From Candidatus Omnitrophota bacterium (lineage in GTDB: Bacteria; Omnitrophota; Gorgyraeia; Zapsychrales; Fredricksoniimonadaceae), in contig CAIOTT010000049.1 of the NCBI GenBank assembly GCA_903861305.1, forward strand, positions 88,246 through 152,245: a stretch of DNA of 64,000 bases, read 5' to 3'. A program made the position numbers and the translations under genes. A model generated the notes under the pieces. The model searched no databases. It was given only the letters and a program-made list of their open reading frames with translations, and was not told the origin of the DNA. How positions within the stretch are numbered: position 1 is the stretch's first letter; every line of letters starts with the position of its first letter. Below are positions 25,597 to 64,000 of the stretch, one piece after another.

Positions 25597-25635
25597 AAAG
25601 GCCTGTTTGGGGAAACTCAAACAGGCCTTTTTTCA
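25597..25635 (+). terminator. Rho-independent terminator after rpoD
   Basis: Stem aaaggcctgtttg / caaacaggcctt followed by tttttca. Confidence 0.65.
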
Positions 25636-25720
25636 TGCCTCCCGATTTGGCACTGATAATAAGTATATGTTATCTTTTAATCCAGGTGGACGCAGTTTGT
25701 GCCAACAGGGAGGGGAGGCG

Positions 25721-40822: not shown

Positions 40823-43800
40823 ATGTTTATCCGAAGGTTTTTATCATGTTTTGTCTGTTTTTCGTTTGTTTCTACCTGCCTTATCCCTCCTGCTTACGCT
40901 CAAACAGCCTTTAAGTTGCCTCAACCAGGGGCCATGGTAGGTCTTTCAAGTAGTTTCATGCCTGTTGTCTTGAAGGGCGTGCACCTTCATCCTGAAAATC
41001 CGCTTCTATTTGATTTTATTGTAGATGCCGGGGACTCGGGTTTTTCGTTTGAAGGCCCGCAGTTCAAGGCTGAGTCCGAAAGGCTCATTAAATATTTCCT
41101 CGCTTCGCTCACGGTCAAGGAAGGCGACCAGTGGGTAAACCTTTCTCCCTACGAAAAAGACCGCATGATCCCTGAAGACCTGGGGAAGACCGAACTGGGC
41201 CGCGACATGCTGGCGCAGGATTACATCCTCAAGCAGTTGACCGCTTCGCTGGTTTATCCGGAGAAGGGCTTAGGCAAGGAATTCTGGGCCAAGGTGTATG
41301 AGAAGGCCCAGGCACAGTTCGGCACCATCGATGTGCCGGTGGATACTTTCAATAAAGTCTGGATCACAGCCGACAAGGCCCGCGTCCTGGAACGCAACAA
41401 TACCGCTTATGTGGTTGGCGCGCACTTGAAGGTTATGTTGGAATCGGACTATATGGCGGCCGCGCAGTCGTCCGGCGTGGGTAGGGGCGGGTCTGTGACC
41501 CGCCCACTTGACAACGCTCAAGAACTGACCAAACAAGTCATGCGCGACGTCATCATCCCCCAGATCGAAAAAGAAGTGAATGAAGGCAATAATTTCAGCC
41601 AATTGCGCCAGATCTTCTACGCCATGATCCTGTCCACCTGGTACAAGCGGGCCCTTAAAACCGCCCTCCTGAACCAGGTCTACAGCAACAAGTCCAAGAC
41701 CAGCGGTGTCGAGAACGCCGATCCGGGCGTGAAGGAAAAGATCTACGCCCAGTACCTGGAAGCCTACCGCAAGGGCGTGTTCAACTATATTAAGGAAGAG
41801 ACGAACGCCGCCGGCGAAACCATCCCGCGAAAATATTTTTCAGGCGGTTTGGACAGAAATTTGAATGTGGATCAGGCGATGGAAGTGATCGATAAGGCGG
41901 CGGCGGGGGATTCTTTAAAAGGAAAGAAAGAAGCCGTGGTCACTGCTGTAATTGATGCTGCAGAGGCATTTAATACTTTATATTTGAGTGAGCAAGGAGC
42001 GCTTTTACTGAGGTTGATCAGGATATTCAAGAGATCTGATTTTCATTGGGGAATATATAAAACGCCTGTTTCAGTTCGCTTGATCGACGGGCAGGGGGTA
42101 GCGAAGAAGGTCATTACGGTCACCCGTGAAGATTGGCAGAATGGTATTGCCGGCATATCAGATAAGTTGCAACATCTTGTGAGTTTATCAACGGATGTGC
42201 CTTTATGGATGATCAAGCTGAAGAAGTCGCCGTACTCGCAGATATTGTCTGTTGACATTACCCCATTCACTTACGAGGGTCTGGCCAGGGAGTGGAATCA
42301 AGGGCATGTCATATCAACGTATTTGGTCAGCCCGCAGAACAAGGGATTTTCATATCAGATCAAGATAGAGCCTTTACAACCGGACGGGCTTGCAGATAAA
42401 AATAAAAATATTATTTGGGATGCTGGAAGCAAGACGTTGCGGATCTTTCTGGATTACAACACGCCGGTGGGGCAGTTCGACCGGCAGAAGTTCTTTGACG
42501 GGATCATTGCGATGGTCGCGGAATTGCAAAATGTGAGCATCAAGAAAGAACTGGAACACAATAAGACACGTTTGGCGCATTTTTTGGGATTGAATATCGA
42601 GGCGGAGCGCGTTCGTGATCTGCGTGAAAAAAGGGATCTGTTGCATAACAAGACAGGCATAAGACCCGAAGAATTGACGTCAGTTAAGATGGAACTGGCC
42701 CTGGCGGAATTTCAATTCGGTGGCGATGTTGTGGACCTGAGCGATATGCCCGGTCCAGAGCGGCAGGCAGCGGTGACACAAGCGATCCGATATGGGTTGA
42801 TCCCCTTGTTGGCGGCACGTCAGGATGTTCAGGAGGTTTTGTCGCATTATCCGCAAGCATTGTCTGCCAGGAGGGTCGGGCCGGGAGAGGCTAATCAGGC
42901 CGTCCTCTCCGGAGCCGGGGTGATCCTTGTGTCGCCGGATGTTACGGCCAATGAAATCAAAGAAGCCCGGGGATTGTCGTTGCGCGTGAGATATAAACCG
43001 CTTGTTGTGATGGTGACAAAAGATGTTTTGAACGTGGACCGGGAGTCTCTTGATCTGGACGGAAAATACGATGGCATTGATCTGAGATTTAGAGGGAGTC
43101 TCCCGGCAGTATTGGATAAATCCAGTGAGGTAGGAAATCTTATAAAATATATTAAAAGAAAGTCTCCGATACCGATGATCATGATTTCCGGAGATGTGAA
43201 CGACGAGAATCGGGATCGTGTGGCTAATGGGGTCAAGGGGGAATTTCATCTGACATCCATGCGTGCCTTCGATGAATTAGAAAACATTGCGCATACGGCG
43301 TTCCAGCACGATGATGCCATGACAAAAGAGGAAGAGACGGGCGCTGCTGGCAAAATTTCCCCGGAAGCGCAAAATATCCTGGATGAAATAAAAAATTACG
43401 CCGTGATTCCCTTGCAATATTGGCCTTTGGATGTGACCACATGGTATGGTGTGCGCACGGCGCAATTGATCATTAAAGAAGGTTTTGAGGACGATCCTGA
43501 GGCGCTTTCAGCGTTGATAGAGGGCGCGATCAAGAGGAGCGGCGCAGGTTTCTCTGCAGCCAGAATGAAAGATGGGCGATCTCTCCATGATGTTGCCTGT
43601 GAGATCGGGTTGGTGGATCCTTCAGACGGGAATATGAATGTGGGCATGGTGCGTATTCTGGAAAAAATTATATTTTATGGCGACGTCATGTTTCAAAAGA
43701 GTGATTTCGATGAACTTCCGAATAAAGCACATGCTCTGATGGAGAGCAGTAACAGGGATGGAGGGATAACGGTTCCATCAGATCTTTCTTTCAAGGATGC

Positions 43801-46657: not shown

Positions 46658-49600
46658 ATGTTCTTCAGAAGGATCATGTCAATTATTGTTTGCCTGGCGT
46701 TTATCCTTACCAGCCTGACCCCTTCAGCATATGCCCAGACAGTCTTTAATTTGCCTCAACCCGGCACCATGGTCGATCTTTCCGGTGCTTTTGCGCCGGC
46801 TGTTCTGAAAGGCGTAACCATCCATCCCGCGGATCCTTTGTTGTTTGATTTTATCGTCGATAACGGCCAAAGCGGGCTTCAGGGCCAGGCGCTGACCGAT
46901 GAGACCACCAAGCTGGTGAAATATTTCCTGGCGGGGCTGGCAGTCCCTGAAAAAGACCTTTGGGTCAACCTGTCGCCGAAAGAAAATGAGCGCGTCATGG
47001 CGGATGACCTGAGCCGCACGGATGTTGGCAGTGCGATGCTGGCGCAGGATTATATCCTGAAACAAGTGACCGCGAGTTTGATGTATCCGGAAAAAGACCT
47101 GGGGCGCAGGTTTTGGGACGAGATCTACAAGCGCGCTTATGCGCAGTTCGGCAATACCAATATGCCGGTGGATACTTTCAATAAGGTTTGGATCATGCCG
47201 GCGGAAGCAACGGTTTATCAGAACGGGAATGACGCGTTCGTCGGCCGTGCGCAGCTTAAGGTGATGCTGGAGAGTGATTTTGAGGCTGCGAAAGGCGTGG
47301 TCTCCCGGCAGGCGGCTGCCGATATCGAGCTGGCCAAGGGTGTTGTCCGTTCCGTGATCCTTCCTGTTTTGGAAAAGGAAGTCAATGAAGGCAGGAATTT
47401 TGCCCCCCTGCGCCAGGTGTTCCATTCCATGATCCTGGCCGGGTGGTACAAGAATGCCCTCAAGGAAAGCTTGCTCGCCCGGGTCTATGCCAACACGAAC
47501 AAGGTCAGCGGCATCGAGATCCCCGAGAAGGATGCCCGTGAAAAAGTGTACGCTCAGTACATGGAAGCTTACCAGAAGGGCGTGTACAACTATGTTAAGG
47601 AAGAGTTGGACCGCAATACGAACGAAGCCGTGCCCCATAAGTATTTCTCTGGTGGTATCACCGAGTTAAGTGTTGATCCCGGGAAGGCTGATGTGTCACA
47701 GGTGGATTTCAAGGGGGCTTCTACGAAGCAGTCTTATAGATTGGATGTTTCCACAGACGGGGCGCAGGAGTTGAGCCGGGCAGATCAGAAGGTTCTCGAT
47801 GGGGCAAAAACGATCATAGAAAGCTTGTTGACGGAGTCATACCAGAACGGCGATATTACGGATACCGTTTATAAAAATGCCCTTGCGAATACGTACAAGA
47901 ATCTTGTTGAATGGACGCAGGATCCGGATATTTATCGCATCGATCCCAGCATCCGTGCGGCCAATCTTGCGGCGATCCGTGACGGCCGTTGGGATGACAT
48001 TATAGAGGCGTACCGACAGGATATCCTGTTCGGGACAGCCGGCATCCGTGGAAAAGCGGTCCTTTCAGAGAAAGAATTGCAGACATTCAAGGCCGAGGGG
48101 CCCTTGGGGAATTTCCTGAAAGGTCCCAATACGATCAACACCTTCAAACTCTTGAAGACCACGCAGGGCCTCATCAAAATGGCCAGGGAGACGGGCTTAA
48201 AACGGGTTGTCATAGGCTATGACAGCCGTATCGGCGGCGCGGCATTCGCGGACATGATCGCGCGTCTTTTTATTGCCCAGTCCACGCCGGAGCATGAGTT
48301 CAAGATATTCCTTTTTGATGAAGCAAGCCCTTTTCCGGAGCTTTCTTACGGCATAACGACGGATGTGGTGAAAGGCGACATCGGTTTGCTCATTTCTGCG
48401 AGCCACAATCCCGCGGATTACAATGGCTATAAGATCACGCTGGGCAACGGGGCACAGTTGAACCAGGCCAGCAAAAATCAGGTCACGGCGGCCATTGATC
48501 AGGTCAGGAATTCCGACATTGTTATGGCTGCTTCGCTGGCCGACGCAAAACCAGGACAGCTCGTGTGGCTTGGAGGCAGTGAGGCGCTTGAGGGTAAGGA
48601 TTATTACGGGTTCGAGCGCATTGATATGCACTCATTGCATGTTGAACAAGTAAAGAAATTCATCTTGAACAAGGAAGTTGTCGTTGCACATTCCGGTGAT
48701 TTGAAGTTCGGCTTTGCAGCGTTCAATGGCGCGGGATTTAAGGCCGTGCCACGATTGTTGAGGGAGACCGGGTTCACCAACGTCAAGGTTATTGAGAAAC
48801 TTCAGAAACTCGACGGCAGTTTTCCGGCGTGGAAGTTTGGCGAACAACCGGATCCCGGCGACCCTATTTCTGCGGATATTGCTGTGAAGGAGTTCATTGC
48901 AGAATACGGCCAGCAGGTGTTTGATCTGCTGGATGCTTTGTTCGGCACTGATCCTGATGCGGACAGGATGGGGTTGAGCGTCAAGGTTCCCGAGTCCCAG
49001 CAGAAATATTTCGGGAAGTACCGGTTACTTTCCGCGAATGACGTTTGGACATTGTTAATATGGTATCGGTTGTCCATGAAAAAGCAAATGGGTCTGCTGG
49101 AAAATCCTTCTAATCATGCGGTCGCATTCAGCCACGTAACAACAGATGCCATTGAAGCTGTGGCGAAAATGTTTGGCGTCGATGCTATTGGGAAAATGCT
49201 TGATGTGACAGGCACCCTTGAAAAAGGAGATTACCTGGCGGGCCGCAGGACATGGGTTGGGTTCACTTACCTTGCGGATATATTGGAAGATGCGTATCAG
49301 ATGGGAAAGTTCGTTGAAATGCTGGCGGAGGAGTCGAACGGTGTGAGCGTGCAGGGCCATACTAAGGAAAAGGATGGGACGCTCGCCGTGATCCTTGTGG
49401 CTGAAGTTGCGGCGTATGCCAGATCTCAGGGTAAAACTTTGTTTGAACTCCTGGATGATGTCTATGCGCTGATTGGTCATTATGCCACGGCCAACAAGCC
49501 GTTGCCAAGGGTCGGGTCGTTCGAGAAAGCGGCCGGGGTCTCAGAAAAGATCAAGATCATTAAAAGATCCCAGGAATGGGGCACGAAGGCCAATGAGGAT

Positions 49601-50269
49601 GCGCATACGGACCATCCGTTCATGATCGCGGGGAAAAAGGTCCTTGGCGCTGTCGAGTTCGCTTCCGGCCGTATCGATAAGACCCATTACGCCGGTGTTC
49701 CGGATGAAGGGGTTCGTTTCTTTTTTGAAGATGAGCAGCTCCAGCCGGGGGATCCTTTTACCAATAGCCATAATTACATCACGATCCGCGCTTCAGGAAC
49801 GTCACAGGCGCTGCGGTTCTACACACAGATATTTTCCCGGGATGTGAGCCCGGAGCAGAAAGCCAAAAATTATGCTGAGGCTGAGCGCGTCGCGCTTGAA
49901 GCGCAGCGACAGATACTTGAGGAAGTCAACCTTGAGAAACATCTTCCTCCGGTCAGAGCGCAGCTTGAAAGTATTTATGCGCAAAACGAGCCTGTCGCTG
50001 ATAAAGCCCAGGATCTGGGCGGTATCGACCTCGGCCAGGGCAATTACCTCAAGGTCATCGCGACGGGAACGGCGGGCGTCCCGCAATTTGACCCTGCCCA
50101 GCTGAAACAGTTGCAGAAAGACCTGCGCGGGGTCATCCCCGTTCCGGTGGGCGTTCCTGTGCCGGTCAGTGTGCGGCCGCTCCTGGGGCTGGATCCTAAT
50201 AGCGGCAACGAGAACCTCCAGCTGAGCCAGATGGGGCCATTGACGTTTGAGGTCGAACAGGACGCATAA
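46658..50269 (+). CDS. Member 4 of the secreted-protein paralog family, fused to an alpha-D-phosphohexomutase (phosphoglucomutase/phosphomannomutase) domain
   Basis: Signal peptide MFFRRIMSIIVCLAFILTSLTPSAYAQT. Conserved N-terminal domain. Phosphohexomutase motifs: GTAGIRGKAV, the active-site Ser loop SASHNPADYNGYKI, the metal loop GTDPDADRMG and the phosphate loop IRASGTSQALR. C-terminus DLGGIDLGQGNYLKV...FDPAQLKQL...GVIPVPVGVPV. Confidence 0.8.
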   Translation: MFFRRIMSIIVCLAFILTSLTPSAYAQTVFNLPQPGTMVDLSGAFAPAVLKGVTIHPADPLLFDFIVDNGQSGLQGQALTDETTKLVKYFLAGLAVPEKDLWVNLSPKENERVMADDLSRTDVGSAMLAQDYILKQVTASLMYPEKDLGRRFWDEIYKRAYAQFGNTNMPVDTFNKVWIMPAEATVYQNGNDAFVGRAQLKVMLESDFEAAKGVVSRQAAADIELAKGVVRSVILPVLEKEVNEGRNFAPLRQVFHSMILAGWYKNALKESLLARVYANTNKVSGIEIPEKDAREKVYAQYMEAYQKGVYNYVKEELDRNTNEAVPHKYFSGGITELSVDPGKADVSQVDFKGASTKQSYRLDVSTDGAQELSRADQKVLDGAKTIIESLLTESYQNGDITDTVYKNALANTYKNLVEWTQDPDIYRIDPSIRAANLAAIRDGRWDDIIEAYRQDILFGTAGIRGKAVLSEKELQTFKAEGPLGNFLKGPNTINTFKLLKTTQGLIKMARETGLKRVVIGYDSRIGGAAFADMIARLFIAQSTPEHEFKIFLFDEASPFPELSYGITTDVVKGDIGLLISASHNPADYNGYKITLGNGAQLNQASKNQVTAAIDQVRNSDIVMAASLADAKPGQLVWLGGSEALEGKDYYGFERIDMHSLHVEQVKKFILNKEVVVAHSGDLKFGFAAFNGAGFKAVPRLLRETGFTNVKVIEKLQKLDGSFPAWKFGEQPDPGDPISADIAVKEFIAEYGQQVFDLLDALFGTDPDADRMGLSVKVPESQQKYFGKYRLLSANDVWTLLIWYRLSMKKQMGLLENPSNHAVAFSHVTTDAIEAVAKMFGVDAIGKMLDVTGTLEKGDYLAGRRTWVGFTYLADILEDAYQMGKFVEMLAEESNGVSVQGHTKEKDGTLAVILVAEVAAYARSQGKTLFELLDDVYALIGHYATANKPLPRVGSFEKAAGVSEKIKIIKRSQEWGTKANEDAHTDHPFMIAGKKVLGAVEFASGRIDKTHYAGVPDEGVRFFFEDEQLQPGDPFTNSHNYITIRASGTSQALRFYTQIFSRDVSPEQKAKNYAEAERVALEAQRQILEEVNLEKHLPPVRAQLESIYAQNEPVADKAQDLGGIDLGQGNYLKVIATGTAGVPQFDPAQLKQLQKDLRGVIPVPVGVPVPVSVRPLLGLDPNSGNENLQLSQMGPLTFEVEQDA

Positions 50270-54537: not shown

Positions 54538-54924
54538 ATGAAGATCATTATTGTTGACGATTCGCTTCTGGACCGTAAGCTTTTGGCGAGGACTCTGGTC
54601 AATCTCGGCGTCACGAACGAGATATTGCAGGCCGACAACGGTGACGCGGGGATGAGCCTTATTGTCGAGAATCTGGGGGATATCGCTTTGATCTTCCTTG
54701 ACTACCAGATGCCGAACATCACAGGAGTGGAACTGATGGAGGGCCTGGTGAAGGTGCCTCTGACTGCCGACCTGCCCATCATCATGGTCACCGCCTCCGC
54801 GTCCGAAGAAAGCAAGCAGACCGCGTATCGGGCGAACCCCAGACTGGCGGGATACGTTCTCAAGCCATTCAAGCCCGACCAGCTTTTGGCCGCGATCAAG
54901 CCTTACGCCAGCATCTCGTCCTGA
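54538..54924 (+). CDS. Response regulator receiver domain protein (CheY-like, single domain)
   Basis: MKIIIVDDSLLDRKLL...FLDYQMPNITG...KPF is present. Confidence 0.8.
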   Translation: MKIIIVDDSLLDRKLLARTLVNLGVTNEILQADNGDAGMSLIVENLGDIALIFLDYQMPNITGVELMEGLVKVPLTADLPIIMVTASASEESKQTAYRANPRLAGYVLKPFKPDQLLAAIKPYASISS

Positions 54925-54925
54925 T

Positions 54926-55504
54926 ATGGTGAATCCTTATCCCGATGGTCTTTCAGGTTATGCCCGTGTTCTCGCGGCATCGGCGCGTAAGATGCTGAAG
55001 ATCAAGGGAGGACTGGAACTTTCGAGGGATCCCGTCCTGCGCGAAAAGGAGATCGTTTCTTTCTGCCGGCACATTCGCGTGGACGCCCTTGAAAAATTCA
55101 ACGCGCGGGCAGTTTTTTCGGTCGTCAAGTTCTACAGTAACGTCGCAGCGATGGAAGCTGATACGCCTGTCGGAGCGCTCATTGTCTTTATCGAGGCGGA
55201 GTTCGTCGCGAAGCTTTTGTGGCATCTGGAATACCCGAGCATCGATGAAGACGATGATGAGGGCATTCTTGACGGTTGCGGAACGCTGACGAACCTTATC
55301 GCGGGGCATTTCGTCAAGGACCTTCACGCGCTGGGCTGTGTTCACCTGCAGATGTCGCATTTTGACAGTTATTTCAACACGGTCCTTGATGGCGTCGCGT
55401 TCGCGCCCGACCAGACAAGGAAGTATGAGATCAATTTCTTTATCAATGGCGAGAAGCGGCTGGTCGCAGAATTGACCATGAGCCATATCCCCAGGATAAA
55501 TTGA
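54926..55504 (+). CDS. Hypothetical protein between two receiver-domain genes
   Basis: 192-aa ORF coupled to both neighbours. No motif is recognised. Confidence 0.4.
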   Translation: MVNPYPDGLSGYARVLAASARKMLKIKGGLELSRDPVLREKEIVSFCRHIRVDALEKFNARAVFSVVKFYSNVAAMEADTPVGALIVFIEAEFVAKLLWHLEYPSIDEDDDEGILDGCGTLTNLIAGHFVKDLHALGCVHLQMSHFDSYFNTVLDGVAFAPDQTRKYEINFFINGEKRLVAELTMSHIPRIN

Positions 55505-55869
55505 GGAAAATTATGCCAGGAACCATCCTGATCGTTGACGATGACCCGACCCTTGTTCACGCGCTGGGGCAGTTCTTTGAAAAGGAAGGTTACCGCGCGC
55601 TCACGTCCCCTGACGGGGTCGACGCATTGAAACAGGTTGAGGCCCATCATCCTGATCTGATCATCCTTGATATCCAGATGCCCAGGCTGCACGGCTATTC
55701 ATTCCTTTTTGAACTTCGCAAGATCGACGGCAATCAGGACATCCCCGTGATCGTCCTCACTTCTTTTGTTGAAATGGGAGGGATGTTCCAGGCTGAAGGC
55801 GTCAAAGAGTTCCTTGTTAAGCCCTGCACGCCGCAGCTGCTTCTTGAAAAGGTAAAAAAATATATTTAA
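55501..55869 (+). CDS. Response regulator receiver domain protein (CheY-like, single domain)
   Basis: ILIVDDDPTLVHAL...ILDIQMPRLHG...KPC is present. Confidence 0.8.
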   Translation: MRKIMPGTILIVDDDPTLVHALGQFFEKEGYRALTSPDGVDALKQVEAHHPDLIILDIQMPRLHGYSFLFELRKIDGNQDIPVIVLTSFVEMGGMFQAEGVKEFLVKPCTPQLLLEKVKKYI

Positions 55870-56953: not shown

Positions 56954-58452
56954 ACCCTGTCCGCATCCTTTCAGGCGTTGTGGCCATAGCGGTGTTCCTT
57001 GCCATGACACATTCATTTTCATTCGCCCAGGAAAACATTAAGGAAGCCAGGCTGGCCGGGAGTTGGTATCCCGGGACCCGTGCTGAACTCACACGGATGC
57101 TGGACGTGTTCTTTGCGGGTGTTGGCGACCCGGGTACGTCCGGTGCTGTCGACATCGGGGTGATCGTGTCGCCTCATGCGGGGTATCCTTTTTCCGGTCC
57201 GGTAGCGGCTTATGGGTTCAAGGCTGTCCAGTCAAAAAATGTTTCTACCGTTATTATCCTCGCGCCAACGCATCATTTTGCCTTCCAGGGAGCGGCGATC
57301 TGGCCCGAGGGCGCTTTTACCACGCCCCTGGGCACCGTGGCCGTGGATAAGGAGCTCGCCGATAAAGTCATCGCGGCCGACAAGCTTTTTAGTTTTCGCA
57401 GGGATATTTTTGAAGGGAAGCCGGGCCAGCCTGAGAATTCAGTTGAAACCCAGATCCCTTTCATCCAAAGGGCTTTTCCCCAGGCGAAGATCGTGCCCAT
57501 TATCATGGGGTATCCGCCGGACCCCCGGGTGATCGAAGCTACGGCGGCCGCCCTTGTCAAGGCCGTCGGTGACAGGGAGGATGTCCTGGTGGATGTGAGC
57601 GTCGACCAGTCGCATTTTCATCCGCTGGCGCAGGCCAACAGCATTGATAAGGCGGGGCTTGATGCCATTGAGAAATTCGATATCCAGGGGCTGTGGGATG
57701 GCCATGCCGCCGGCCGGATGGAGGTGGATGGGTTCCATGTGGTCACAGCGGCCATGATCTATGCCAGGGCCAGGGGGTATTCCAGCGCGAAGGTCCTGCG
57801 GCACGCCACATCAGCGGATGTCACGGCGGATGCCTCAAGCGTTGTCGGGTACGCGTCGATAATTTTTTTCAGGAAGCTTGAAAGACCCCAGGGCGTTGCG
57901 CCCTTGACAGCGGCGCATAAAGAACGCCTGCTCGCGATCGCCCGCGCAAGCGTGGATGCATTCGTGAAGACGGGCAAAGCCCCGGCTGTTGATGAGAAAG
58001 ATGCCCGTCTTCTTGAGGAAGAGGGGGCGTTCGTGACGTTGAAAAAACAGGGCAGCCTGCGCGGATGCATCGGCAATATTATCGGGCAGGGCCCTTTGTT
58101 CATGACGGTGCGTGATATGGCGGTGGCCGCGGCGAGCGAAGACCCGCGTTTTTCGCCCGTTAGTCCTGCCGAGTTGAAGGATGTCGATGTTGAGGTGTCG
58201 GTCCTTTCAAAACCGCGTGCTGTAAAGAACGCAGGGGAGATCATCATGGGCACGCATGGCGTTATCGTGCGCCGCGGGGCCAGGGGCGGTGTTTTCCTGC
58301 CCCAGGTGGCCACGGAAACGGGGTGGAGCAAGGAGCGATTTTTGTCGGAGCTATGTTCCCAGAAAGCCGGTTTACCGCCCGATTGCTGGCAGGATCCCGC
58401 GACGACGCTTGAAGTTTTTACGGCTGAAGTATTCGGAGAGAAGGAGAAATAG
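56950..58452 (+). CDS. Fusion of Memo-like (AmmeMemoRadiSam system protein B) and AMMECR1 (system protein A) domains, with an N-terminal signal peptide
   Basis: Signal peptide MNPVRILSGVVAIAVFLAMTHSFSFAQE. The Memo region has SPHAGYPFSGPVAAYGF. The AMMECR1 region has GAFVTLKKQGSLRGCIGNI. Confidence 0.75.
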   Translation: MNPVRILSGVVAIAVFLAMTHSFSFAQENIKEARLAGSWYPGTRAELTRMLDVFFAGVGDPGTSGAVDIGVIVSPHAGYPFSGPVAAYGFKAVQSKNVSTVIILAPTHHFAFQGAAIWPEGAFTTPLGTVAVDKELADKVIAADKLFSFRRDIFEGKPGQPENSVETQIPFIQRAFPQAKIVPIIMGYPPDPRVIEATAAALVKAVGDREDVLVDVSVDQSHFHPLAQANSIDKAGLDAIEKFDIQGLWDGHAAGRMEVDGFHVVTAAMIYARARGYSSAKVLRHATSADVTADASSVVGYASIIFFRKLERPQGVAPLTAAHKERLLAIARASVDAFVKTGKAPAVDEKDARLLEEEGAFVTLKKQGSLRGCIGNIIGQGPLFMTVRDMAVAAASEDPRFSPVSPAELKDVDVEVSVLSKPRAVKNAGEIIMGTHGVIVRRGARGGVFLPQVATETGWSKERFLSELCSQKAGLPPDCWQDPATTLEVFTAEVFGEKEK

Positions 58453-58453
58453 A

Positions 58454-58708
58454 ATGACAGGCAAGGCGAAACGAGAAAAAAGAAAGATCTTCAAGGAACA
58501 GGAACAGCAGGACAAAGGACAGAAAAAACCTCTTTTGTCCGATCGGCAAAAACGAGCGCTGCTTATTGTTCTGGTTGTCCTTTTATTCACCGTCCCTGTG
58601 GCGGATATCCTGCGTTGCAAGGCGGCTTGCATGAAGCGCGTCAAAACGCCTTATCCGGAGATCGCCTGCCGGTACGAATGTCCCTGGCCGTGGCAGAAAA
58701 GTGAATGA
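58454..58708 (+). CDS. Small basic membrane-anchored Cys-rich protein (hypothetical)
   Basis: 84 aa: MTGKAKREKRK..., TM helix ALLIVLVVLLFTVPV, then CKAACMKRVKTPYPEIACRYECPWPWQ. An AAGGAG RBS lies at 58441. Confidence 0.4.
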   Translation: MTGKAKREKRKIFKEQEQQDKGQKKPLLSDRQKRALLIVLVVLLFTVPVADILRCKAACMKRVKTPYPEIACRYECPWPWQKSE

Positions 58709-59820
58709 GAACGTCTGTTGAAGCCCGCACGATCTGGATCTGTTCGTTCCTGATCATGGCCGCCGGGTTATTCACCCTTTACAGCGCCTCTTACGATAAT
58801 CTGCGCGTCAAAGGTCAGGTTTTTTATGATCAACTGGGATGCGCGGTCTTTGCCCTTGCGGTGATGTTCGTTCTCAGCCGCATCAATTACCGGGCATTTT
58901 ATGATGCCGCGTATCCGTTGTATTTCATCAGCGTCTTGTTGCTTGTTTTTGTCCTTGTGGCTGGCCGGTCCGCGCTTGGTGCCACCCGCTGGTTCAATGT
59001 GGCCGGCATTTCCTTCCAGCCGTCCGAACTTTCCAAGATCGCCGTCATTCTCATGCTCGGCCGATATTTCAGCAAACGCAATCCAAAGCTTTCGTTCGAT
59101 ATCCGCAGCTCTTTTTATGCGCTGGGGAGGGACCTGTTGTATCCGTTCTTTCTCGTGCTGTTGAGCCTCGTGTTCATTTTTAAACAGCCTGATCTTGGTA
59201 CGGCTATTTTGGTGTATGGGATATTCCTGGTCATGCTGTTTGCCAGCGGCCTCGATTGGAAGCCCTTCGCCTGCCTTTTGGGTGTGAGTGTCCTCATGGT
59301 GCCATTGGCCTGGAGTTTTTTATTGAAGTCTTACCAGAAAGACAGGCTTCTCGTTTTTTTAAATCCTAATATCGACCCTTTGGGGGCGGGTTATACCATT
59401 ATCCAGTCAAGGATCGCCATTGGTTCAGGACAGCTGTTTGGTAAAGGATGGCTGGCCGGGACCCAAAATCAGCTTAACTTCCTGCCAGAGCGCCACACAG
59501 ACTTTATTTTTGCGGTGATCGGCGAAGAGTGGGGTTTCGTCGGAGCAGCCCTGCTTTTGGGGTGTTATTTCATGCTTATTTACACGTCCATATTGGTCGC
59601 CGGGCGCATCAAGGACAAGTTCGGTTATCTTGTTGCCGTGGGTATTGTTTCGATCCTGGCGCTCCAGGTGGTCATCAATATGAGCATGACCATGGGGCTA
59701 AGCCCGGTTGTTGGCATCACCCTGCCCCTGATCAGCTATGGCAGGACATCGTTCCTTGTATTTGCGATCATGATAGGCTTCCTCCTGAACCTTTGTCATC
59801 AGCGGCGTTCTACGTTGTGA
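58705..59820 (+). CDS. rodA: FtsW/RodA/SpoVE family peptidoglycan glycosyltransferase (SEDS protein)
   Basis: Ten TM helices. Contains FQPSELSKIAVIL and IQSRIAIGSGQLFGKG. Confidence 0.85.
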   Translation: MRTSVEARTIWICSFLIMAAGLFTLYSASYDNLRVKGQVFYDQLGCAVFALAVMFVLSRINYRAFYDAAYPLYFISVLLLVFVLVAGRSALGATRWFNVAGISFQPSELSKIAVILMLGRYFSKRNPKLSFDIRSSFYALGRDLLYPFFLVLLSLVFIFKQPDLGTAILVYGIFLVMLFASGLDWKPFACLLGVSVLMVPLAWSFLLKSYQKDRLLVFLNPNIDPLGAGYTIIQSRIAIGSGQLFGKGWLAGTQNQLNFLPERHTDFIFAVIGEEWGFVGAALLLGCYFMLIYTSILVAGRIKDKFGYLVAVGIVSILALQVVINMSMTMGLSPVVGITLPLISYGRTSFLVFAIMIGFLLNLCHQRRSTL

Positions 59821-59928
59821 CGGGGTGGTCTTCCGGCAGTGTTTTTATCCAATAATTCGGCAAAAAAAGTTCACTTTTAGAGTATAGATGATATAGTAAA
59901 ATAATCACTATTAACTTATATTTAATAT

Positions 59929-60378
59929 ATGCGATTTGAACGGGCTTCCAATAAACAGTTAGGCGAACTTCTTGTTGAGCGCGGTGTTATCACGCGCGCT
60001 CAGCTTGACAGCGCACTTGAATATCAGAAGAGCCACAAGGGAATTCTGGTGGGCGAAGCTTTGGTCGATCTCGGCGTCGCTACAGAAGAAGATATCGCCC
60101 AGGCGCTGACCTGCCAGTACGGGTTCCCCTACCTTCCGCTTGCCAATTACGAGGTTGACAAGGAGGTGCTCTCGTCTGTTCCGGGTAATATCTGTGAGCA
60201 GTTCTGCCTTGTTCCCATTGATAAGATCGGCAAGAACATAACGCTGGCCATGTCCAATCCGCTCAATGTCAAGGCGGTGGAGAGCGTTGAGCTTTTGTCC
60301 GGATGTTCCGTACAGACTTTTGTGAGTACGGCGGGGGATATCCGCAATGCTATCAAGAGGTATTACGGTTCCACGTAA
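59929..60378 (+). CDS. Stand-alone MshEN / T2SS-E N-terminal domain protein (predicted c-di-GMP-binding)
   Basis: Two tandem 24-residue MshEN motifs: LGELLVERGVITRAQLDSALEYQ and VGEALVDLGVATEEDIAQALTCQ. These are followed by a GSPII_E_N-like alpha/beta domain. Confidence 0.7.
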   Translation: MRFERASNKQLGELLVERGVITRAQLDSALEYQKSHKGILVGEALVDLGVATEEDIAQALTCQYGFPYLPLANYEVDKEVLSSVPGNICEQFCLVPIDKIGKNITLAMSNPLNVKAVESVELLSGCSVQTFVSTAGDIRNAIKRYYGST

Positions 60379-62129
60379 TGGCAACGTTTAAAGAGCGCAT
60401 CAAGGATATCCTGTTGCGGGATAAGGTCCTTAAGCCCGGGGACCTTGACCGCGCGCTGGAAGAGCAGGCGGCTTCCGGCGGGGATCTCTCCAGGATCCTG
60501 GTCCGTATGGGCCTTATCGATGAAGACCAGCTTACGTTGCTGCTGAGCGAAGGCCTGCAGCTTCCCATCATCAATATCACCCGCTTCAAGGCCGATCCTG
60601 CGGTCGTAAAGATCGTCTCTCCGGATGTCATGAGAAAGTACCAGATATTCCCGATATCAAACATCGGGACCCATCTTGTCCTTGCCATGACAGACCCTCT
60701 CAATATTTTTGTCATCGACAATATCAAGGCCATGACAGGGTTGAATATCATTCCTGTGATCAGCCGTCCCAAGGATGTCCGTGATGCCATTGAACAGTTT
60801 GACGCGCCCAAACCCCAGGATTCTTTCGAAAAGATCAAGAAAGACATCAAGGATGCCGAAGAGCTTGAGCTGGTCGCTGAGGGTGTTGAAAAGATGGATA
60901 CGGCGCAGATCGAGCACCTGACGCAGGAGGCGCCCATCATCCGTTTGACCACCACGATCATCCGCCAGGCCGTTGCCTCCAAGGCGAGCGATGTCTTTAT
61001 CGAGCCCATGGAAAAATATCTTGGCATCCGTTACCGTGTGGACGGTGTCCTGCGCAAGATCGACCAGATGCCCAAAGCGCTGCATTTTCCCATTGTTTCA
61101 CGGATCAAGGTCATATCCAATCTGGACATTTCAGAACACCGTTTGCCCCAGGACGGGCGTTTCAAGATCGTTCTCGACGGTGGCGGCGAAGTCGATTTTC
61201 GCGTCAGCGTCCTTCCGACAGCCCATGGTGAAAAGATCGTCATGCGGGTACTCGACAAGAACCTGGACCGTGTGGATATTGACAGGATCGGTTTTGAGCA
61301 AGGCCCCCTGGCCCGCCTCAAGGAGGCGTGCACGCGCCCCCACGGGATGGTCCTGGTGTGCGGCCCGACGGGCAGCGGCAAGACGACGACACTGTATTCG
61401 GTCCTCAAATACATTGATTCTCCGGGCAAGAACATGGTCACCGTGGAAGATCCGGTAGAATACCAGATGAAGGGATTGAACCAGGTCAATATCCGTTTTG
61501 AGGTGGGGTTGACTTTTACATCGACGCTGCGCTCCATCCTGCGGCAGGACCCTGATGTGATCATGATCGGCGAGATCCGGGACACTGAAACGCTGGATAT
61601 CGCCGTCAAGGCGGCGCTGACCGGGCATTTGGTCCTCAGTTCGCTGCACACCACAACAGCGGCAGGGTCGATCGTGCGCATGGTCAATATGGGGATCGAG
61701 CCGTTCCTGATCTGTTCTTCGGTCAACTGCATTGTGGCCCAGCGCCTGTTGCGCAAGGTATGTCCGTCCTGCAAGGAAGAGGTCAAGATATTGCAGGTCC
61801 TTTATGACAAGCTTGAGATAGGGGCGACCATTCCCGGCAAGGATTTGACGTTCTTTCGCGGCAAGGGGTGTGCACGCTGCCTCGGGAGCGGCTACAGCGG
61901 GCGCGTGGGCATTAATGAGGTCCTGCCGTTGTCGAGTGCCGTGAAGAAGCTTATCCTGGGGCGTGTCGGGGAGATCGCGATCAAGGTGCAGGCACGGCGC
62001 GAAGGGATGATCACCATGAGAGAAGACGCGTTGATCAAGGCGGCAAATGGGATGACCAGCCTGGAGGAAGTGGTGCGCGTTACGGCCGCTGACGAGGCGC
62101 GAAGAGACGAGACACGGAGGCCAGGCTGA
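60378..62129 (+). CDS. GspE/PilB-family secretion/type IV pilus assembly ATPase (copy 1)
   Basis: Degenerate MshEN-like N-terminus. Walker A VCGPTGSGKTTTLYS. Asp and His boxes are present. A C-terminal tetracysteine CPSC...CARC is present. The ATG at 60378 overlaps the upstream stop. Confidence 0.9.
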   Translation: MATFKERIKDILLRDKVLKPGDLDRALEEQAASGGDLSRILVRMGLIDEDQLTLLLSEGLQLPIINITRFKADPAVVKIVSPDVMRKYQIFPISNIGTHLVLAMTDPLNIFVIDNIKAMTGLNIIPVISRPKDVRDAIEQFDAPKPQDSFEKIKKDIKDAEELELVAEGVEKMDTAQIEHLTQEAPIIRLTTTIIRQAVASKASDVFIEPMEKYLGIRYRVDGVLRKIDQMPKALHFPIVSRIKVISNLDISEHRLPQDGRFKIVLDGGGEVDFRVSVLPTAHGEKIVMRVLDKNLDRVDIDRIGFEQGPLARLKEACTRPHGMVLVCGPTGSGKTTTLYSVLKYIDSPGKNMVTVEDPVEYQMKGLNQVNIRFEVGLTFTSTLRSILRQDPDVIMIGEIRDTETLDIAVKAALTGHLVLSSLHTTTAAGSIVRMVNMGIEPFLICSSVNCIVAQRLLRKVCPSCKEEVKILQVLYDKLEIGATIPGKDLTFFRGKGCARCLGSGYSGRVGINEVLPLSSAVKKLILGRVGEIAIKVQARREGMITMREDALIKAANGMTSLEEVVRVTAADEARRDETRRPG

Positions 62130-63832
62130 TGCAGGCGATCCGTGAAAAAATAGTTGAGGCGTTGTTGCAGCGGCCCGGGGTGACCAAGGTTGAAGTGGAT
62201 GCCGCCATGGAAGTGCACCGCCAGGAGGGGGTGTCCATCGGCGAGGCGCTTGTGCGCAAGGGGCTTATCTCGGAGAAGGAGTTATTGCTGTTGCTTGTCA
62301 GGGAGCTGCATATCCCTTCGCTTGATCTGCGGCATTTCAAGGTGGACGAGAAATTGAGGGAGTTGATCCCGGAACGCATGGCGCGGCAATACCAGCTTGT
62401 GCCCATTGCCGCCCTGGGCAGCGGCGTCACGGTCGCGCTGTCAGACCCTTTCAATGTGTTCGCTGTTGATGACCTCAGGAGCCTTACGGGCAAGCGTATT
62501 GATATTGTGATGGGGGCCCATTCCCAGGTCCGTGAGGCCATTGATAAATTATATAACACATCCGCCCAGACCACGGTGGCCGAGATCAGCAAGGATTTTG
62601 ATGTCGGCGGCCTGGAGATCGTCGGTGACGTTGAGAATGAGCCCAATGCCGATGTGGACAGCAGCGGGCAGGCGCCGATCATCCGCATGGTCAACCTGGT
62701 CATCAAGGAAGCCCTGCGCCAGAGGGCTTCGGATATTCACATGGAGCCGACGGAGGGCGACATGCGGGTCCGCTACCGGATCGACGGGGTCCTCCAGGAC
62801 ATCCTGGATGTCCCCCGTGAAAGCCGCAGCGCCGTCGTGGTGCGCATCAAGATCATGGCGCGGATGGATATCACGATGAACCAGATCCCGCAGGACGGGC
62901 GGTTCAAAATGCGCGTCACGGGCAAGGAGGTGGATTTCAGGGTCTCGATCCTGCCCACCTGCCATGGGCCCAAGATCGTCATGCGTATCCTGGACAAGAG
63001 CGGGCTTTCCGTCGGGCTGGAGCATCTCGGGTTCTCGCCCCAGTCCGTGGCCATGATCAACGAGTACATGCTCAAGCCTTACGGCATGATCCTTGTGACG
63101 GGCCCGACGGGCAGCGGCAAGTCCACCACGCTTTATTCCATGATCAGCCGTCTGAATACGCCCGAAAAGAATATCATTACCGTCGAGGACCCTGTCGAAT
63201 ATCTTCTTGAAGGCTTGACCCAGATCGAGGTCAAGGCGGATATCGGGCTTACCTTTGCCGCGGGGTTGCGGTCCATCCTGCGCCAGAGCCCTGATATCGT
63301 GATGGTCGGCGAGATCCGCGATAATGAGACCGCTGATATCGCCATCAAGGCGTCGCTGACAGGCCAGCTGGTATTTTCGACCCTGCATACCAATGACGCT
63401 GCTGGTGCATTGACGCGCCTGGTCGACATGAACGTTGAGCCGTTCCTGGTGGCGTCGAGCCTTTTGATGGTGTGTGCCCAGCGCCTCGCGCGCAAGATCT
63501 GCCCGCACTGCAAGGAGGAGATCGAGATCCCGCCGGAGGCTATCGAACGGCTGCAGGGACACATTGACCTGAAGACAAAATTTTATGAGGGCCGCGGCTG
63601 CGAGCGCTGCCGTCAGACGGGTTATTTCGGACGTTTCGGATTGACGGAATTATTGATCGTCGATGACACCATCCGCAGCATGCTTCTGGAGGGAAAGATG
63701 TCGGATGATATCAAGAAGTATGCGCGCGAGACGCAGGGGATGCGGACGCTCTGGGATGACGCGATCGAACGCCTGGCCCAGGGGCAGACCACCATTGCCG
63801 AAGTTCTGCGGGTGGCGACATCCGAAGAATGA
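62129..63832 (+). CDS. GspE/PilB-family secretion/type IV pilus assembly ATPase (copy 2)
   Basis: The N-terminus has an MshEN-like motif IGEALVRKGLISEKELLLLL. Walker A VTGPTGSGKSTTLYS. A C-terminal tetracysteine CPHC...CERC is present. Confidence 0.9.
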   Translation: MQAIREKIVEALLQRPGVTKVEVDAAMEVHRQEGVSIGEALVRKGLISEKELLLLLVRELHIPSLDLRHFKVDEKLRELIPERMARQYQLVPIAALGSGVTVALSDPFNVFAVDDLRSLTGKRIDIVMGAHSQVREAIDKLYNTSAQTTVAEISKDFDVGGLEIVGDVENEPNADVDSSGQAPIIRMVNLVIKEALRQRASDIHMEPTEGDMRVRYRIDGVLQDILDVPRESRSAVVVRIKIMARMDITMNQIPQDGRFKMRVTGKEVDFRVSILPTCHGPKIVMRILDKSGLSVGLEHLGFSPQSVAMINEYMLKPYGMILVTGPTGSGKSTTLYSMISRLNTPEKNIITVEDPVEYLLEGLTQIEVKADIGLTFAAGLRSILRQSPDIVMVGEIRDNETADIAIKASLTGQLVFSTLHTNDAAGALTRLVDMNVEPFLVASSLLMVCAQRLARKICPHCKEEIEIPPEAIERLQGHIDLKTKFYEGRGCERCRQTGYFGRFGLTELLIVDDTIRSMLLEGKMSDDIKKYARETQGMRTLWDDAIERLAQGQTTIAEVLRVATSEE

Positions 63833-63949
63833 ATAATATTTTTTGTTTTCTTCTCCAGCGTGGTTTCTATATAATAAATATGAGGTCCGGTCCGAACCAC
63901 AATGCTGTGCCGTGACCGGCAGCTGTTCTGGCGTGAAAAGGGATATGTT

Positions 63950-64000
63950 ATGCAAAAACCCTGTGATGACCATCGGTTGATCGGCGAGATCCTCGTTGAA
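63950..64000 (+). CDS. Partial gene start: another MshEN/T2SS-E N-terminal domain protein (truncated by the window end)
   Basis: MQKPCDDHRLIGEILVE... matches the RLGExLV start of the MshEN motif. Confidence 0.35.
   Translation, partial: MQKPCDDHRLIGEILVE

What the first reader, a model, noticed from the sequence alone, without database searches (positions are those of the whole stretch)
59929..64000. Stand-alone c-di-GMP-type MshEN domain protein preceding two tandem GspE/PilB ATPases, with a second MshEN-like gene starting at the window edge
The 149-aa protein at 59929-60378 contains two tandem 24-residue motifs that match the MshEN c-di-GMP-binding consensus almost perfectly. The consensus is RLGxx(L/V/I)(L/V/I)xxG(L/V/I)(L/V/I)xxxxLxxxLxxQ. 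The motifs are LGELLVERGVITRAQLDSALEYQ and VGEALVDLGVATEEDIAQALTCQ.

It is followed, with start/stop overlaps, by two full-length PilB/GspE ATPases. Their own N-termini carry only degenerate versions of the motif (the first lacks the G and the final Q; the second has Q to E). Then comes another gene beginning ...RLIGEILVE.

MshEN domains that are detached from the ATPase, rather than fused to it, suggest a trans-acting c-di-GMP sensor for a pilus or secretion motor. Two different hexameric ATPases back to back suggest an extension/retraction-like or heteromeric arrangement.
Basis: partly seen in the sequence, partly recalled or inferred. Interest (0 to 1): 0.6.

Follow-up and report, generated by a model that had tools for sequence, protein, structure and literature searches.

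The report
Detached c-di-GMP sensor on pilus motor
In an uncultured Omnitrophota bacterium, the domain that normally lets a pilus-assembly motor sense the signal molecule c-di-GMP is encoded as separate small proteins beside two motor ATPases whose own copies of that domain have decayed; this split layout is conserved across the phylum but no binding has been tested.

Summary
Window 59929-60378 encodes a 149-aa stand-alone MshEN protein (MshEN1) with both 24-residue c-di-GMP motifs. It overlaps by one base a PilB-type ATPase (ATP1, 60378-62129), which overlaps by one base a second one (ATP2, 62129-63832). A gene starting at 63950 is a second stand-alone MshEN (151 aa, seen on an overlapping contig), followed by PilC.

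The organism is Candidatus Omnitrophota. In 81 related loci the order is RodA, MshEN1, ATP1, ATP2, MshEN2 (in 40 of 61), PilC, pilin, PilMNO, secretin.

The ligand-contacting Gly of both motifs is present in 80/80 MshEN1 and 41/41 MshEN2. No ATP1 (0/77) or ATP2 (0/67) keeps both. ATP2 carries Glu where a Gln-to-Glu change weakens binding in Thermus PilF. One relative encodes MshEN1 and ATP1 as a single protein.

Best reading: a type IVa-like pilus machine whose c-di-GMP receptor works in trans on the motor. c-di-GMP binding, the partner and the roles of the two ATPases are inferred, not shown. I rate it a new variant of a known kind, of moderate interest.

The parts
58705..59820 (+). RodA/FtsW-family gene. 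It is the conserved upstream neighbour and not part of the pilus operon.
   Evidence: Pfam FTSW_RODA_SPOVE on the identical gene in L001. It lies directly upstream of MshEN1 in 70 of 81 related loci.
59870..59897 (+). Promoter-like site (TTCACT, 16 nt, TATAGT, with TG before the -10) in the AT-rich 108-nt gap before MshEN1.
   Evidence: Consensus scan only; sequence. This suggests, but does not show, that MshEN1 heads the transcription unit.
59929..60378 (+). MshEN1: stand-alone 149-aa MshEN (GSPII) domain protein and predicted c-di-GMP receptor.
   Evidence: Pfam and NCBIfam hits. AF2 model with pLDDT 84. Foldseek TM 0.89 to PilF GSPII-A and 0.70 to MshE with c-di-GMP, 5HTL. Orthologues are 63-95% identical among the 80 loci kept of 156 matching stretches in genome contigs.
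59956..60027 (+). Motif I of MshEN1 (residues 10-33, QLGELLVERGVITRAQLDSALEYQ).
   Evidence: Across orthologues, position-3 Gly is 80/80 and position-24 Gln is 72/80, and the hydrophobic positions are conserved. Position 1 is H or Q, not R.
60046..60117 (+). Motif II of MshEN1 (residues 40-63, LVGEALVDLGVATEEDIAQALTCQ).
   Evidence: Position-3 Gly is 80/80 and position-24 Gln is 80/80. Position 1 is Leu in 79/80, which fits the extended (R/K/L)LG consensus of PMC11731258. Position-10 Gly is variable (K46, G20, N10).
60378..62129 (+). ATP1: PilB-type secretion ATPase (583 aa) with a degenerate N-terminal MshEN domain.
   Evidence: Pfam T2SSE 443.9 bits plus MshEN. NCBIfam PilB 625.9 bits against a cut-off of 675.65. 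Best PDB match is Geobacter PilB 5ZFR at 550 bits. Catalytic boxes and the four-Cys cluster are kept in orthologues. Motif I position 3 is K or Q in most orthologues and Gly in none (0 G of 77). Motif II position 1 is E or D, position 3 is S, and position 24 is G or S.
62129..63832 (+). ATP2: second PilB-type ATPase (567 aa, 42% identical to ATP1) with a more degenerate N-terminal MshEN domain.
   Evidence: Motif I position 3 is I, L or V. Motif II position 24 is Glu in 64/67. None of 60 N-termini hit the c-di-GMP_motif profile at E<=1e-9.
63950..64000 (+). 5' end (17 codons) of MshEN2, a second stand-alone MshEN protein (151 aa in full on contig L001:5642-6097).
   Evidence: It is 37% identical to MshEN1. 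Both position-3 Gly and both position-24 Gln are 41/41 in orthologues. It is present in 40 of 61 loci that reach PilC.

Best explanation
This stretch is the start of a type IVa-pilus-like operon of a Candidatus Omnitrophota bacterium. The gene order is MshEN1, ATP1, ATP2, MshEN2, PilC, then (in relatives) pilin, PilM, PilN, PilO and secretin.

The c-di-GMP-sensing MshEN module is normally the N-terminal domain of a PilB/MshE/GspE motor ATPase. Here it is encoded as one or two separate ~150-aa proteins. Both PilB-type ATPases keep only decayed copies that have lost ligand-contacting residues.

Proposed mechanism (inferred):
- MshEN1 is made together with ATP1 and ATP2 through translational coupling.
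- MshEN1 binds one c-di-GMP in its four-helix N-subdomain.
- Through its highly conserved T2SSE_N1-like C-subdomain, MshEN1 associates with the motor, most likely ATP1. This makes motor engagement or activity at the PilC/PilM platform depend on c-di-GMP.
- MshEN2 is an optional second receptor next to ATP2 and PilC.

Shown: the genes, domains, fold, synteny, residue conservation pattern and the existence of a fused orthologue. Inferred: c-di-GMP binding, the binding partner, and the direction of regulation. Both ATPases look catalytically competent and PilB-like; their division of labour is unknown.
For: - **Domains and fold.** The fold is supported by an AF2 model with pLDDT 84 and by Foldseek hits to MshE with c-di-GMP and to PilF GSPII domains.
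- **Operon context.** PilC, an N_methyl pilin, PilM, PilN, PilO and a secretin lie downstream in relatives.
- **Synteny.** Among 81 loci, ATP1 follows MshEN1 in 78. PilC is found in 61, and MshEN2 is present in 40 of those 61.
- **Residue-level split.** Both position-3 Gly are kept in 80/80 MshEN1 and 41/41 MshEN2, against 0/77 ATP1 and 0/67 ATP2.
- **Match to experiment.** The positions changed in the ATPases (I-3, II-1, II-3, II-24) are among those blamed for loss of binding in XpsE (section 12). The G11L variant of MshE has no detectable binding (supplementary ITC table; both PMC5013675). Q-to-E changes at position 24 lower binding (Q190E alone) or abolish it (Q190E with Q218E) in PilF GSPII-B (PMC11731258).
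- **Position 1.** Leu at motif II position 1 fits the extended consensus and is reported there as a predictor of high affinity (PMC11731258).
- **Conservation.** MshEN1 is the best conserved protein of the cluster. Its median identity is 67.6%, against 62.2% for ATP1, 59.2% for ATP2 and 61.7% for RodA, and it is the highest in 54 of 64 loci.
- **Translational coupling.** The junctions are one-base stop/start overlaps.
- **Natural fusion.** P0130 in L086 is a single protein with an MshEN1-like part and an ATP1-like part. It is followed by ATP2-like and PilC genes.
Against: - No binding or interaction data exist.
- A consensus motif is not sufficient. [quoted passage not shown]
- Position 1 of motif I is H or Q, outside both the original and the extended consensus. 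Position-10 Gly of motif II is mostly Lys.
- By profile score, ATP1 N-termini still pass the NCBIfam c-di-GMP_motif threshold (59/60 at E<=1e-9). ATP1 may therefore retain some binding.
- The neighbouring GGDEF-domain gene in relatives is degenerate (GDHEF, no RxxD). It does not supply a local cyclase.
- MshEN2 is absent in a third of loci with no compensating change in the ATPases.
Confidence: 0.55

Rival explanations
1. MshEN1 and MshEN2 are c-di-GMP-independent structural or adaptor subunits, comparable to the non-binding GSPII-A domain of Thermus PilF. They would dock the ATPases to PilM or PilC or help hexamer assembly without sensing any nucleotide.
For: The best structural match is the non-binder PilF GSPII-A. 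The motif is necessary but not sufficient for binding (PMC12002112). Position 1 deviates in both motifs. The AF2 model predicts helix 1 from residue 6, an extended apo-like helix that would have to unwind for binding.
Against: The residues that are invariant only in the stand-alone proteins are the ligand-contact Gly and Gln. The hydrophobic core positions are kept in all four domain classes. A purely structural role does not explain that difference.
Confidence: 0.2
2. MshEN1 is a decoy or competitive inhibitor. It mimics the ATPase N1 docking domain and occupies the PilM (GspL-like) site, blocking motor engagement. c-di-GMP would release or strengthen the block. The effect would be negative regulation at the platform rather than a positive subunit of ATP1.
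For: The C-terminal subdomain is the T2SSE_N1 fold, which binds GspL in type II secretion systems. Foldseek gives weak hits to 2BH1 and 4PHT. That subdomain is extremely conserved (QYGFPYLPL, PIDKIGK). The ATPases keep their own N1 subdomains, so competition is possible.
Against: The natural MshEN1-ATP1 fusion and the one-base overlap argue for a stoichiometric partnership with ATP1, not for a free competitor.
Confidence: 0.15
3. The split is an artefact: a frameshifted or mis-assembled (MshEN)2-T2SSE gene, or a pseudogene fragment.
For: Fused (MshEN)2-T2SSE proteins exist in other lineages (Supplementary Table 4 of PMC5013675).
Against: The separate ~149-aa ORF with its own stop, followed by a full-length ATPase, recurs in 78 of 81 independent loci at 63-95% identity. 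The identical arrangement is present on an independent assembly (L001).
Confidence: 0.01

Closest known systems
Vibrio cholerae MshE / Myxococcus and Geobacter PilB (MshEN-T2SSE: c-di-GMP receptor fused to the pilus extension ATPase)
   Same: The MshEN fold, the two-motif ligand site, the PilB-type ATPase and the type IV pilus operon context are the same. Geobacter PilB is the best solved match of both ATPases and of MshEN1.
   Different: Here the intact receptor is a separate polypeptide, or two. The ATPases' own N-domains lack the ligand-contact Gly and Gln. There are also two ATPase paralogues in tandem.
Thermus thermophilus PilF and other (MshEN)2-4-T2SSE ATPases
   Same: One motor carries several GSPII/MshEN modules, some binding c-di-GMP and some degenerate. 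Leu at motif position 1 occurs as in the high-affinity GSPII-B domain (PMC11731258). MshEN1 plus ATP1 together equal an (MshEN)2-T2SSE protein, and L086 encodes exactly that fusion.
   Different: In the window the modules are split into separate genes and spread over two ATPases. The binding-competent module is the detached one.
Pseudomonas aeruginosa PA3740 (MshEN_N plus a diverged N1 subdomain, no ATPase; Supplementary Table 4 of PMC5013675)
   Same: Both are small MshEN-type c-di-GMP receptor candidates without an ATPase domain.
   Different: I did not compare PA3740 here at the sequence or context level. The Omnitrophota proteins have a canonical, highly conserved N1 subdomain and sit inside the pilus operon. 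That paper's table of architectures lists no plain stand-alone MshEN.
Trans-acting c-di-GMP cofactors of PilB: FimX-PilZ in Xanthomonas and Pseudomonas
   Same: [quoted passage not shown] The logic is the same.
   Different: The receptor folds are unrelated (EAL and PilZ versus MshEN). Here the trans factor is a paralogue of the ATPase's own N-domain.
Acinetobacter baylyi PilB/TfpB (two extension ATPases for one pilus)
   Same: Two distinct PilB-family ATPases serve a single pilus system (PMC11656802).
   Different: Neither ATPase here reaches the TfpB model cut-off (434.7 and 467.5 bits against 850). Here they are adjacent and translationally coupled. Their functional roles are untested.

Membership tests
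MshEN / GSPII c-di-GMP-binding domain | Two tandem 24-residue motifs separated by a short (about 5-residue) spacer | tested here: met
   Residues 10-33 and 40-63 with a 6-residue spacer; the spacer is 5 in 55/80 and 6 in 25/80 orthologues. NF053729 scores 59.2 bits against a cut-off of 38.
MshEN / GSPII c-di-GMP-binding domain | Gly at motif position 3 in both motifs (the backbone amides contact guanine; G11L abolishes binding) | tested here: met
   G12 and G42 are present, each in 80/80 orthologues. MshEN2 has both in 41/41.
MshEN / GSPII c-di-GMP-binding domain | Gln at motif position 24 in both motifs | tested here: met
   Q33 (72/80) and Q63 (80/80).
MshEN / GSPII c-di-GMP-binding domain | Arg at motif position 1, or K/L in the extended consensus of PMC11731258 | tested here: inconclusive
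   Motif I position 1 is Q10 (H43, Q28 in orthologues), which is outside both consensus versions; an invariant Lys precedes it. Motif II position 1 is L40 (79/80), which fits the extended consensus.
MshEN / GSPII c-di-GMP-binding domain | Four-helix N-subdomain plus an alpha/beta T2SSE_N1 C-subdomain | tested here: met
   AF2 model with pLDDT 84 and helices 6-17, 23-35, 41-47 and 53-64, followed by an alpha/beta part. Foldseek to 5HTL gives E 9e-10 and TM 0.70; to 9G1W it gives TM 0.89.
MshEN / GSPII c-di-GMP-binding domain | Actual binding of c-di-GMP | not testable with these tools
   This needs ITC, DRaCALA or DSF. The motif is not sufficient (PMC12002112).
Type IVa pilus assembly ATPase PilB (TIGR02538) | Score above the curated equivalog cut-off | tested here: not met
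   ATP1 scores 625.9 and ATP2 scores 604.9 bits against 675.65. PilB is the best-scoring family for both, but neither is a curated equivalog.
Type IVa pilus assembly ATPase PilB (TIGR02538) | Walker A, Asp box, Walker B, His box and the tetracysteine cluster | tested here: met
   All are present in the window proteins (alignment). Every box is kept in at least 56 of 65 ATP2 orthologues and at least 65 of 71 ATP1 orthologues (Asp box 56/65 in ATP2, Walker B 65/71 in ATP1), and the four-Cys cluster is kept in all.
Type IVa pilus assembly ATPase PilB (TIGR02538) | Operon context with PilC, a pilin, PilM/N/O and a secretin | tested here: met
   PilC follows on the same genome's contig L001. The full set is present in relatives L002, L004 and L006.
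Type II secretion ATPase GspE (TIGR02533) | Score above the curated cut-off, and a GspL/GspM/GspC context | tested here: not met
   Scores are 550.7 and 598.7 bits against 630.25. Downstream genes hit PilM_2, PilN and PilO, not GspL or GspM.
TfpB-type second extension ATPase (NF053534) | Score above the curated cut-off | tested here: not met
   Scores are 434.7 and 467.5 bits against 850.
PilT/PilU retraction ATPase (TIGR01420) | Short ATPase without an MshEN N-domain, scoring above the cut-off | tested here: not met
   Scores are 174.3 and 195.8 bits against 319.1. Both proteins carry N-terminal MshEN-type domains.

The most novel reading that the evidence does not exclude
The detached MshEN proteins act as exchangeable, c-di-GMP-loaded selector subunits. 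They would decide which of the two PilB paralogues engages the single PilC/PilM platform. One second messenger would then switch a machine with no PilT in its cluster between two modes, for example extension versus retraction, or pilus assembly versus secretion or DNA uptake.
Probability: 0.12. Interest if true: 0.75.

Novelty: new variant of a known kind. Interest (0 to 1): 0.5.

Why it matters
How c-di-GMP binding to the MshEN domain changes PilB/MshE activity is still unclear, according to the 2024 review PMC11656802. In every studied case the receptor is covalently attached to the motor. Omnitrophota offer a natural split system: receptor and motor are separate proteins, the motors' own sites are decayed, and a fused orthologue is available as a control. 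Binding, docking and ATPase activation could therefore be measured separately in vitro.

The arrangement also shows that profile-based annotation would credit the wrong proteins with c-di-GMP sensing. The small proteins are labelled 'PilB' or 'hypothetical', while ATP1 N-termini pass the c-di-GMP-motif model.

Finally, it identifies a likely c-di-GMP output in a phylum known almost only from metagenome-assembled genomes, where pili are probably important for attachment to other cells.

Tried and rejected
- **Local diguanylate cyclase.** I looked for one as independent support. A HAMP-GAF-GGDEF gene directly precedes MshEN1 in 19 of 73 loci. Its signature is GDHEF or AEHEF with no RxxD in all 22 distinct sequences found (23 loci listed; L005 duplicates L004), so it is degenerate and cannot be counted as a cyclase.
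- **Riboswitch.** I found no c-di-GMP riboswitch or other Rfam RNA in 58000-64000. The only hit is a sub-threshold CRISPR-DR match inside ATP2, which is chance.
- **PilT-like ATPase.** None lies in the window or within 10 kb of any of the 85 loci then held.
- **Compensation test.** I asked whether ATP1 or ATP2 keep better motifs where MshEN2 is absent. They do not.
- **Profile model as an independent test of decay.** The NCBIfam c-di-GMP_motif model separates ATP2 (0/60) but not ATP1 (59/60 pass). The claim for ATP1 therefore rests on residue-level arguments only.
- **Taxonomy of distant stand-alone relatives.** Only 2 of 10 representatives carried names, and both were Omnitrophota. Distribution outside the phylum stays open.
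- **Literature.** I found no description of stand-alone MshEN proteins in pilus operons or of Omnitrophota pilus motors. The library is incomplete, so this is not proof of novelty.
- **Complex prediction.** Modelling MshEN1 with ATP1 was not possible with the tools available.

Full report
**What is in the window.** All long ORFs in this stretch are on the + strand.
- After a RodA/FtsW gene (58705-59820) comes a 108-nt AT-rich gap. It contains a promoter-like site at 59870-59897.
- Three tightly packed genes follow: a 149-aa ORF (59929-60378, 'MshEN1'), a 583-aa ORF from the ATG at 60378 ('ATP1', ending at 62129), and a 567-aa ORF (62129-63832, 'ATP2').
- The junctions are TAATG and TGATG, each a one-base stop/start overlap.
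- After a 117-nt gap an ATG at 63950 opens a gene that runs off the window.
- A 7.2-kb contig from an independent assembly (L001) carries identical MshEN1, ATP1 and ATP2 genes. It shows that this last gene is a complete 151-aa protein ('MshEN2') followed by a PilC/GspF platform gene.

**Domain identities.**
- MshEN1 hits Pfam MshEN with its C-terminal subdomain (64.6 bits, residues 64-148).
- It hits the NCBIfam 53-residue 'c-di-GMP_motif' model with its N-terminal part (59.2 bits against a cut-off of 38, residues 10-61).
- MshEN2 behaves the same way (61.8 and 52.3 bits).
- An AlphaFold2 model of MshEN1 (pLDDT 84) has four helices followed by an alpha/beta unit.
- Foldseek finds only MshEN/GSPII domains as significant hits: PilF GSPII-A (TM 0.89), MshE with c-di-GMP (5HTL, TM 0.70), c-di-GMP-bound PilF GSPII-B, and the N-domains of XpsE and Xanthomonas PilB.
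- ATP1 and ATP2 are full-length T2SSE ATPases with an N-terminal MshEN-type domain. They are 42% identical to each other.
- Both match Geobacter PilB best among solved structures (550 and 516 bits).
- Both score highest on the PilB model, but neither reaches the curated cut-offs for PilB, GspE or TfpB.

**Organism and conservation.** The homologues that carry an organism name are almost all labelled Candidatus Omnitrophota or Omnitrophica.
- A scan of species-representative genomes found 156 encoded relatives. The 80 best are 63-95% identical. The records are labelled Omnitrophota or carry generic MAG labels.
- I mapped 14 reference proteins onto the 85 loci held at that point and counted over the 81 that are not duplicates.
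- The order is RodA (70/81), MshEN1, ATP1 (78/81), ATP2, PilC, then a coiled-coil protein, one or two pilins, PilM, PilN, PilO, a small protein and a secretin.
- This is a type IVa-pilus-like gene set, not a GspL/GspM type II secretion set.
- MshEN2 is present in 40 of the 61 loci that reach PilC and is truly absent in the other 21.
- MshEN1 is the best conserved protein of the cluster. Its median identity to the window is 67.6%, against 62.2% for ATP1, 59.2% for ATP2 and 61.7% for RodA. It is the highest in 54 of 64 loci.

**The key result: who keeps the ligand site.** Published structures define the site as two copies of RLGxx(L/V/I)(L/V/I)xxG(L/V/I)(L/V/I)xxxxLxxxLxxQ.
- The backbone amides at the Gly of 'LG' contact guanine.
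- The G11L variant gives no detectable binding and G40I a 72-fold loss (PMC5013675, main text and supplement).
- In PilF GSPII-B, Q190E weakens binding and the Q190E+Q218E double mutant abolishes it. Lys and Leu replace the Arg, which extends the consensus to (R/K/L)LG (PMC11731258).

Across orthologues, the fraction with the consensus residue at each key position is:

| Protein | Motif I pos. 3 Gly | Motif II pos. 3 Gly | Motif I pos. 24 Gln | Motif II pos. 24 Gln |
|---|---|---|---|---|
| MshEN1 | 80/80 | 80/80 | 72/80 | 80/80 |
| MshEN2 | 41/41 | 41/41 | 41/41 | 41/41 |
| ATP1 | 0/77 (mostly K or Q) | 5/77 (Ser in 70) | 75/77 | 0/77 (mostly G or S) |
| ATP2 | 0/67 (mostly I, L or V) | 8/67 (D or E in 44) | 52/67 | 0/67 (Glu in 64) |

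- ATP1 also has E or D at motif II position 1.
- No ATP1 (0/77) and no ATP2 (0/67) has both Gly or both Gln.
- The hydrophobic core positions are kept in all four domain classes. The difference is therefore specific to ligand-contact residues.

**Caveats on binding.**
- Position 1 of motif I in MshEN1 is H or Q, preceded by an invariant Lys. This is outside both consensus versions.
- Position-10 Gly of motif II is mostly Lys.
- The motif is not sufficient. PilF GSPII-A stays a non-binder after its consensus is restored, because of a stable N-cap and contacts between subdomains (PMC12002112). GSPII-A is the closest structural match of my model.
- At profile level the ATP1 N-termini still pass the NCBIfam c-di-GMP_motif model (59/60 at E<=1e-9). 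ATP2 N-termini do not (0/60), and MshEN1 does in every case (34/34).
- 'ATP2 has lost the site' is therefore well supported. 'ATP1 has lost it' rests on residue-level reasoning only.

**Evidence for a partnership with the motor.** A HMMER search of 1.84 billion representatives found 20,485 MshEN-like proteins.
- Among the best 150, 66 are shorter than 220 aa (most look like stand-alone proteins; a few may be fragments). Many others carry two to seven MshEN copies, with or without an ATPase domain.
- One representative, P0130 (765 aa), is a single protein. Its MshEN1-like part is 44% identical to MshEN1. A low-complexity linker joins it to an ATP1-like part that is 45% identical to ATP1 and includes the ATP1-type degenerate N-domain.
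- Its locus L086 continues with an ATP2-like gene (46.5%) and PilC.
- MshEN1 plus ATP1 therefore equal an (MshEN)2-T2SSE protein. That architecture is already listed for Clostridia, and three- and four-copy versions for other phyla, including Thermus (Supplementary Table 4 of PMC5013675).
- A natural fusion, together with the one-base overlaps, is the classical indication that the separate proteins work in one complex.

**The two ATPases.**
- Both keep Walker A, the Asp box, Walker B and the His box in nearly all orthologues, and the four-Cys cluster in all of them.
- Both are PilB-like, not PilT-like: the PilT model gives 174 and 196 bits against a cut-off of 319.
- No PilT-like gene lies in the window or within 10 kb of any locus.
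- I cannot decide whether they are two extension motors (as proposed for A. baylyi PilB/TfpB, PMC11656802), a mixed hexamer, or an extension/retraction pair.

**What did not hold up.**
- In 19 of 73 loci a HAMP-GAF-GGDEF gene directly precedes MshEN1, overlapping its start in L004. Its signature is GDHEF or AEHEF and it has no RxxD I-site in all 22 distinct sequences found. It is not a cyclase; it may be another receptor or scaffold.
- There is no riboswitch in the region.
- ATPase motifs are no better preserved where MshEN2 is missing.

**Comparison with known systems and novelty.** Every component belongs to a known family: the MshEN domain, PilB-type ATPases and the type IVa pilus machinery. 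c-di-GMP control of PilB through a separate protein is also known (FimX-PilZ, PMC8389850).
- What I did not find described in the searchable literature is this layout: intact MshEN receptors detached from, and encoded beside, two PilB paralogues whose own MshEN sites are decayed, conserved across a phylum.
- The architecture table of Wang et al. lists no plain stand-alone MshEN. The nearest entry is PA3740, with a diverged N1 subdomain.
- I classify the finding as a new variant of a known kind, with moderate interest.
- The organisms are uncultured and nothing is tested. The proteins are small and easy to express, and the split design would help answer how MshEN controls PilB.

Noticed in passing
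L004:8571-10004 (also L023, L025, L027, L030, L033, L039, L040, L044, L047, L051-L053, L056, L057, L066, L070, L071, L076, L081, L084, L085); not present in the window: A HAMP-GAF-GGDEF-domain gene sits directly upstream of MshEN1 in 19 of 73 related loci and overlaps its start in L004. Its active-site signature is GDHEF or AEHEF and it has no RxxD I-site, so it looks like a degenerate GGDEF protein of unknown role.
   Followed up: partly
L086:8001-10298 (protein P0130): This is a natural single-chain fusion of an MshEN1-like domain and an ATP1-like ATPase, joined by a Gly/Asn/Lys-rich linker. It is followed by ATP2-like and PilC genes. The source organism is unknown (JGI metagenome 3300009514).
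   Followed up: partly
L037:10001-12449: In one close relative (RodA 80% identical) MshEN1 is followed directly by MshEN2, the coiled-coil gene and a pilin, with no ATP1, ATP2 or PilC. Its MshEN1 is only 64% identical, lower than expected for that RodA identity.
   Followed up: no
L055:5370-14356: About 5 kb is inserted between MshEN1 and ATP1. A second, very diverged MshEN1-like stretch (24% identity) lies just before ATP1.
   Followed up: no
window 59929-60378 (residues C62, C89, C93, C126 of MshEN1): Four cysteines are invariant or nearly so across MshEN1 orthologues (ALTCQ, CxQFC, GC). They are mostly absent from MshEN2 and from the ATPase N-domains. They could form a metal or redox site; I did not examine the geometry.
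   Followed up: no
proteins P0125, P0129, P0143, P0152, P0182, P0248: These metagenomic proteins of about 1,260-1,350 aa carry five to seven tandem MshEN-type domains. Comparison with the window proteins detected no ATPase domain in them.
   Followed up: no
window 54538-55869: Two single-domain response regulators (54538-54924, 55501-55869) flank a 192-aa ORF with no assigned family (its 208-aa counterpart in L002 has no Pfam hit). The trio, followed by DsbA-like, MauE/DoxX and Memo-AMMECR1 genes, is conserved upstream of RodA in relatives (L002, L003).
   Followed up: no
window 40823-46642, 2950-6390, 25607-27418: Three very large ORFs (1939, 1146 and 603 aa) have no Pfam hit at E<=1e-5.
   Followed up: no
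window 46658-50269: This 1203-aa ORF has phosphoglucomutase/phosphomannomutase domains I-III only in residues ~476-936. About 470 residues at the N-terminus are unassigned.
   Followed up: no
window 1-64000: Almost every ORF of 250 aa or more that does not overlap a longer one lies on the + strand, and cumulative GC skew rises monotonically. This is consistent with one replichore and strong gene-strand bias.
   Followed up: no
L002:15679-16728 and orthologues: A roughly 350-aa protein with a hydrophobic N-terminus (signal-peptide-like by eye) and only a faint Rod_CreS (coiled-coil) Pfam hit lies between PilC and the pilin gene in the clade closest to the window. It is not a standard type IV pilus component.
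   Followed up: no
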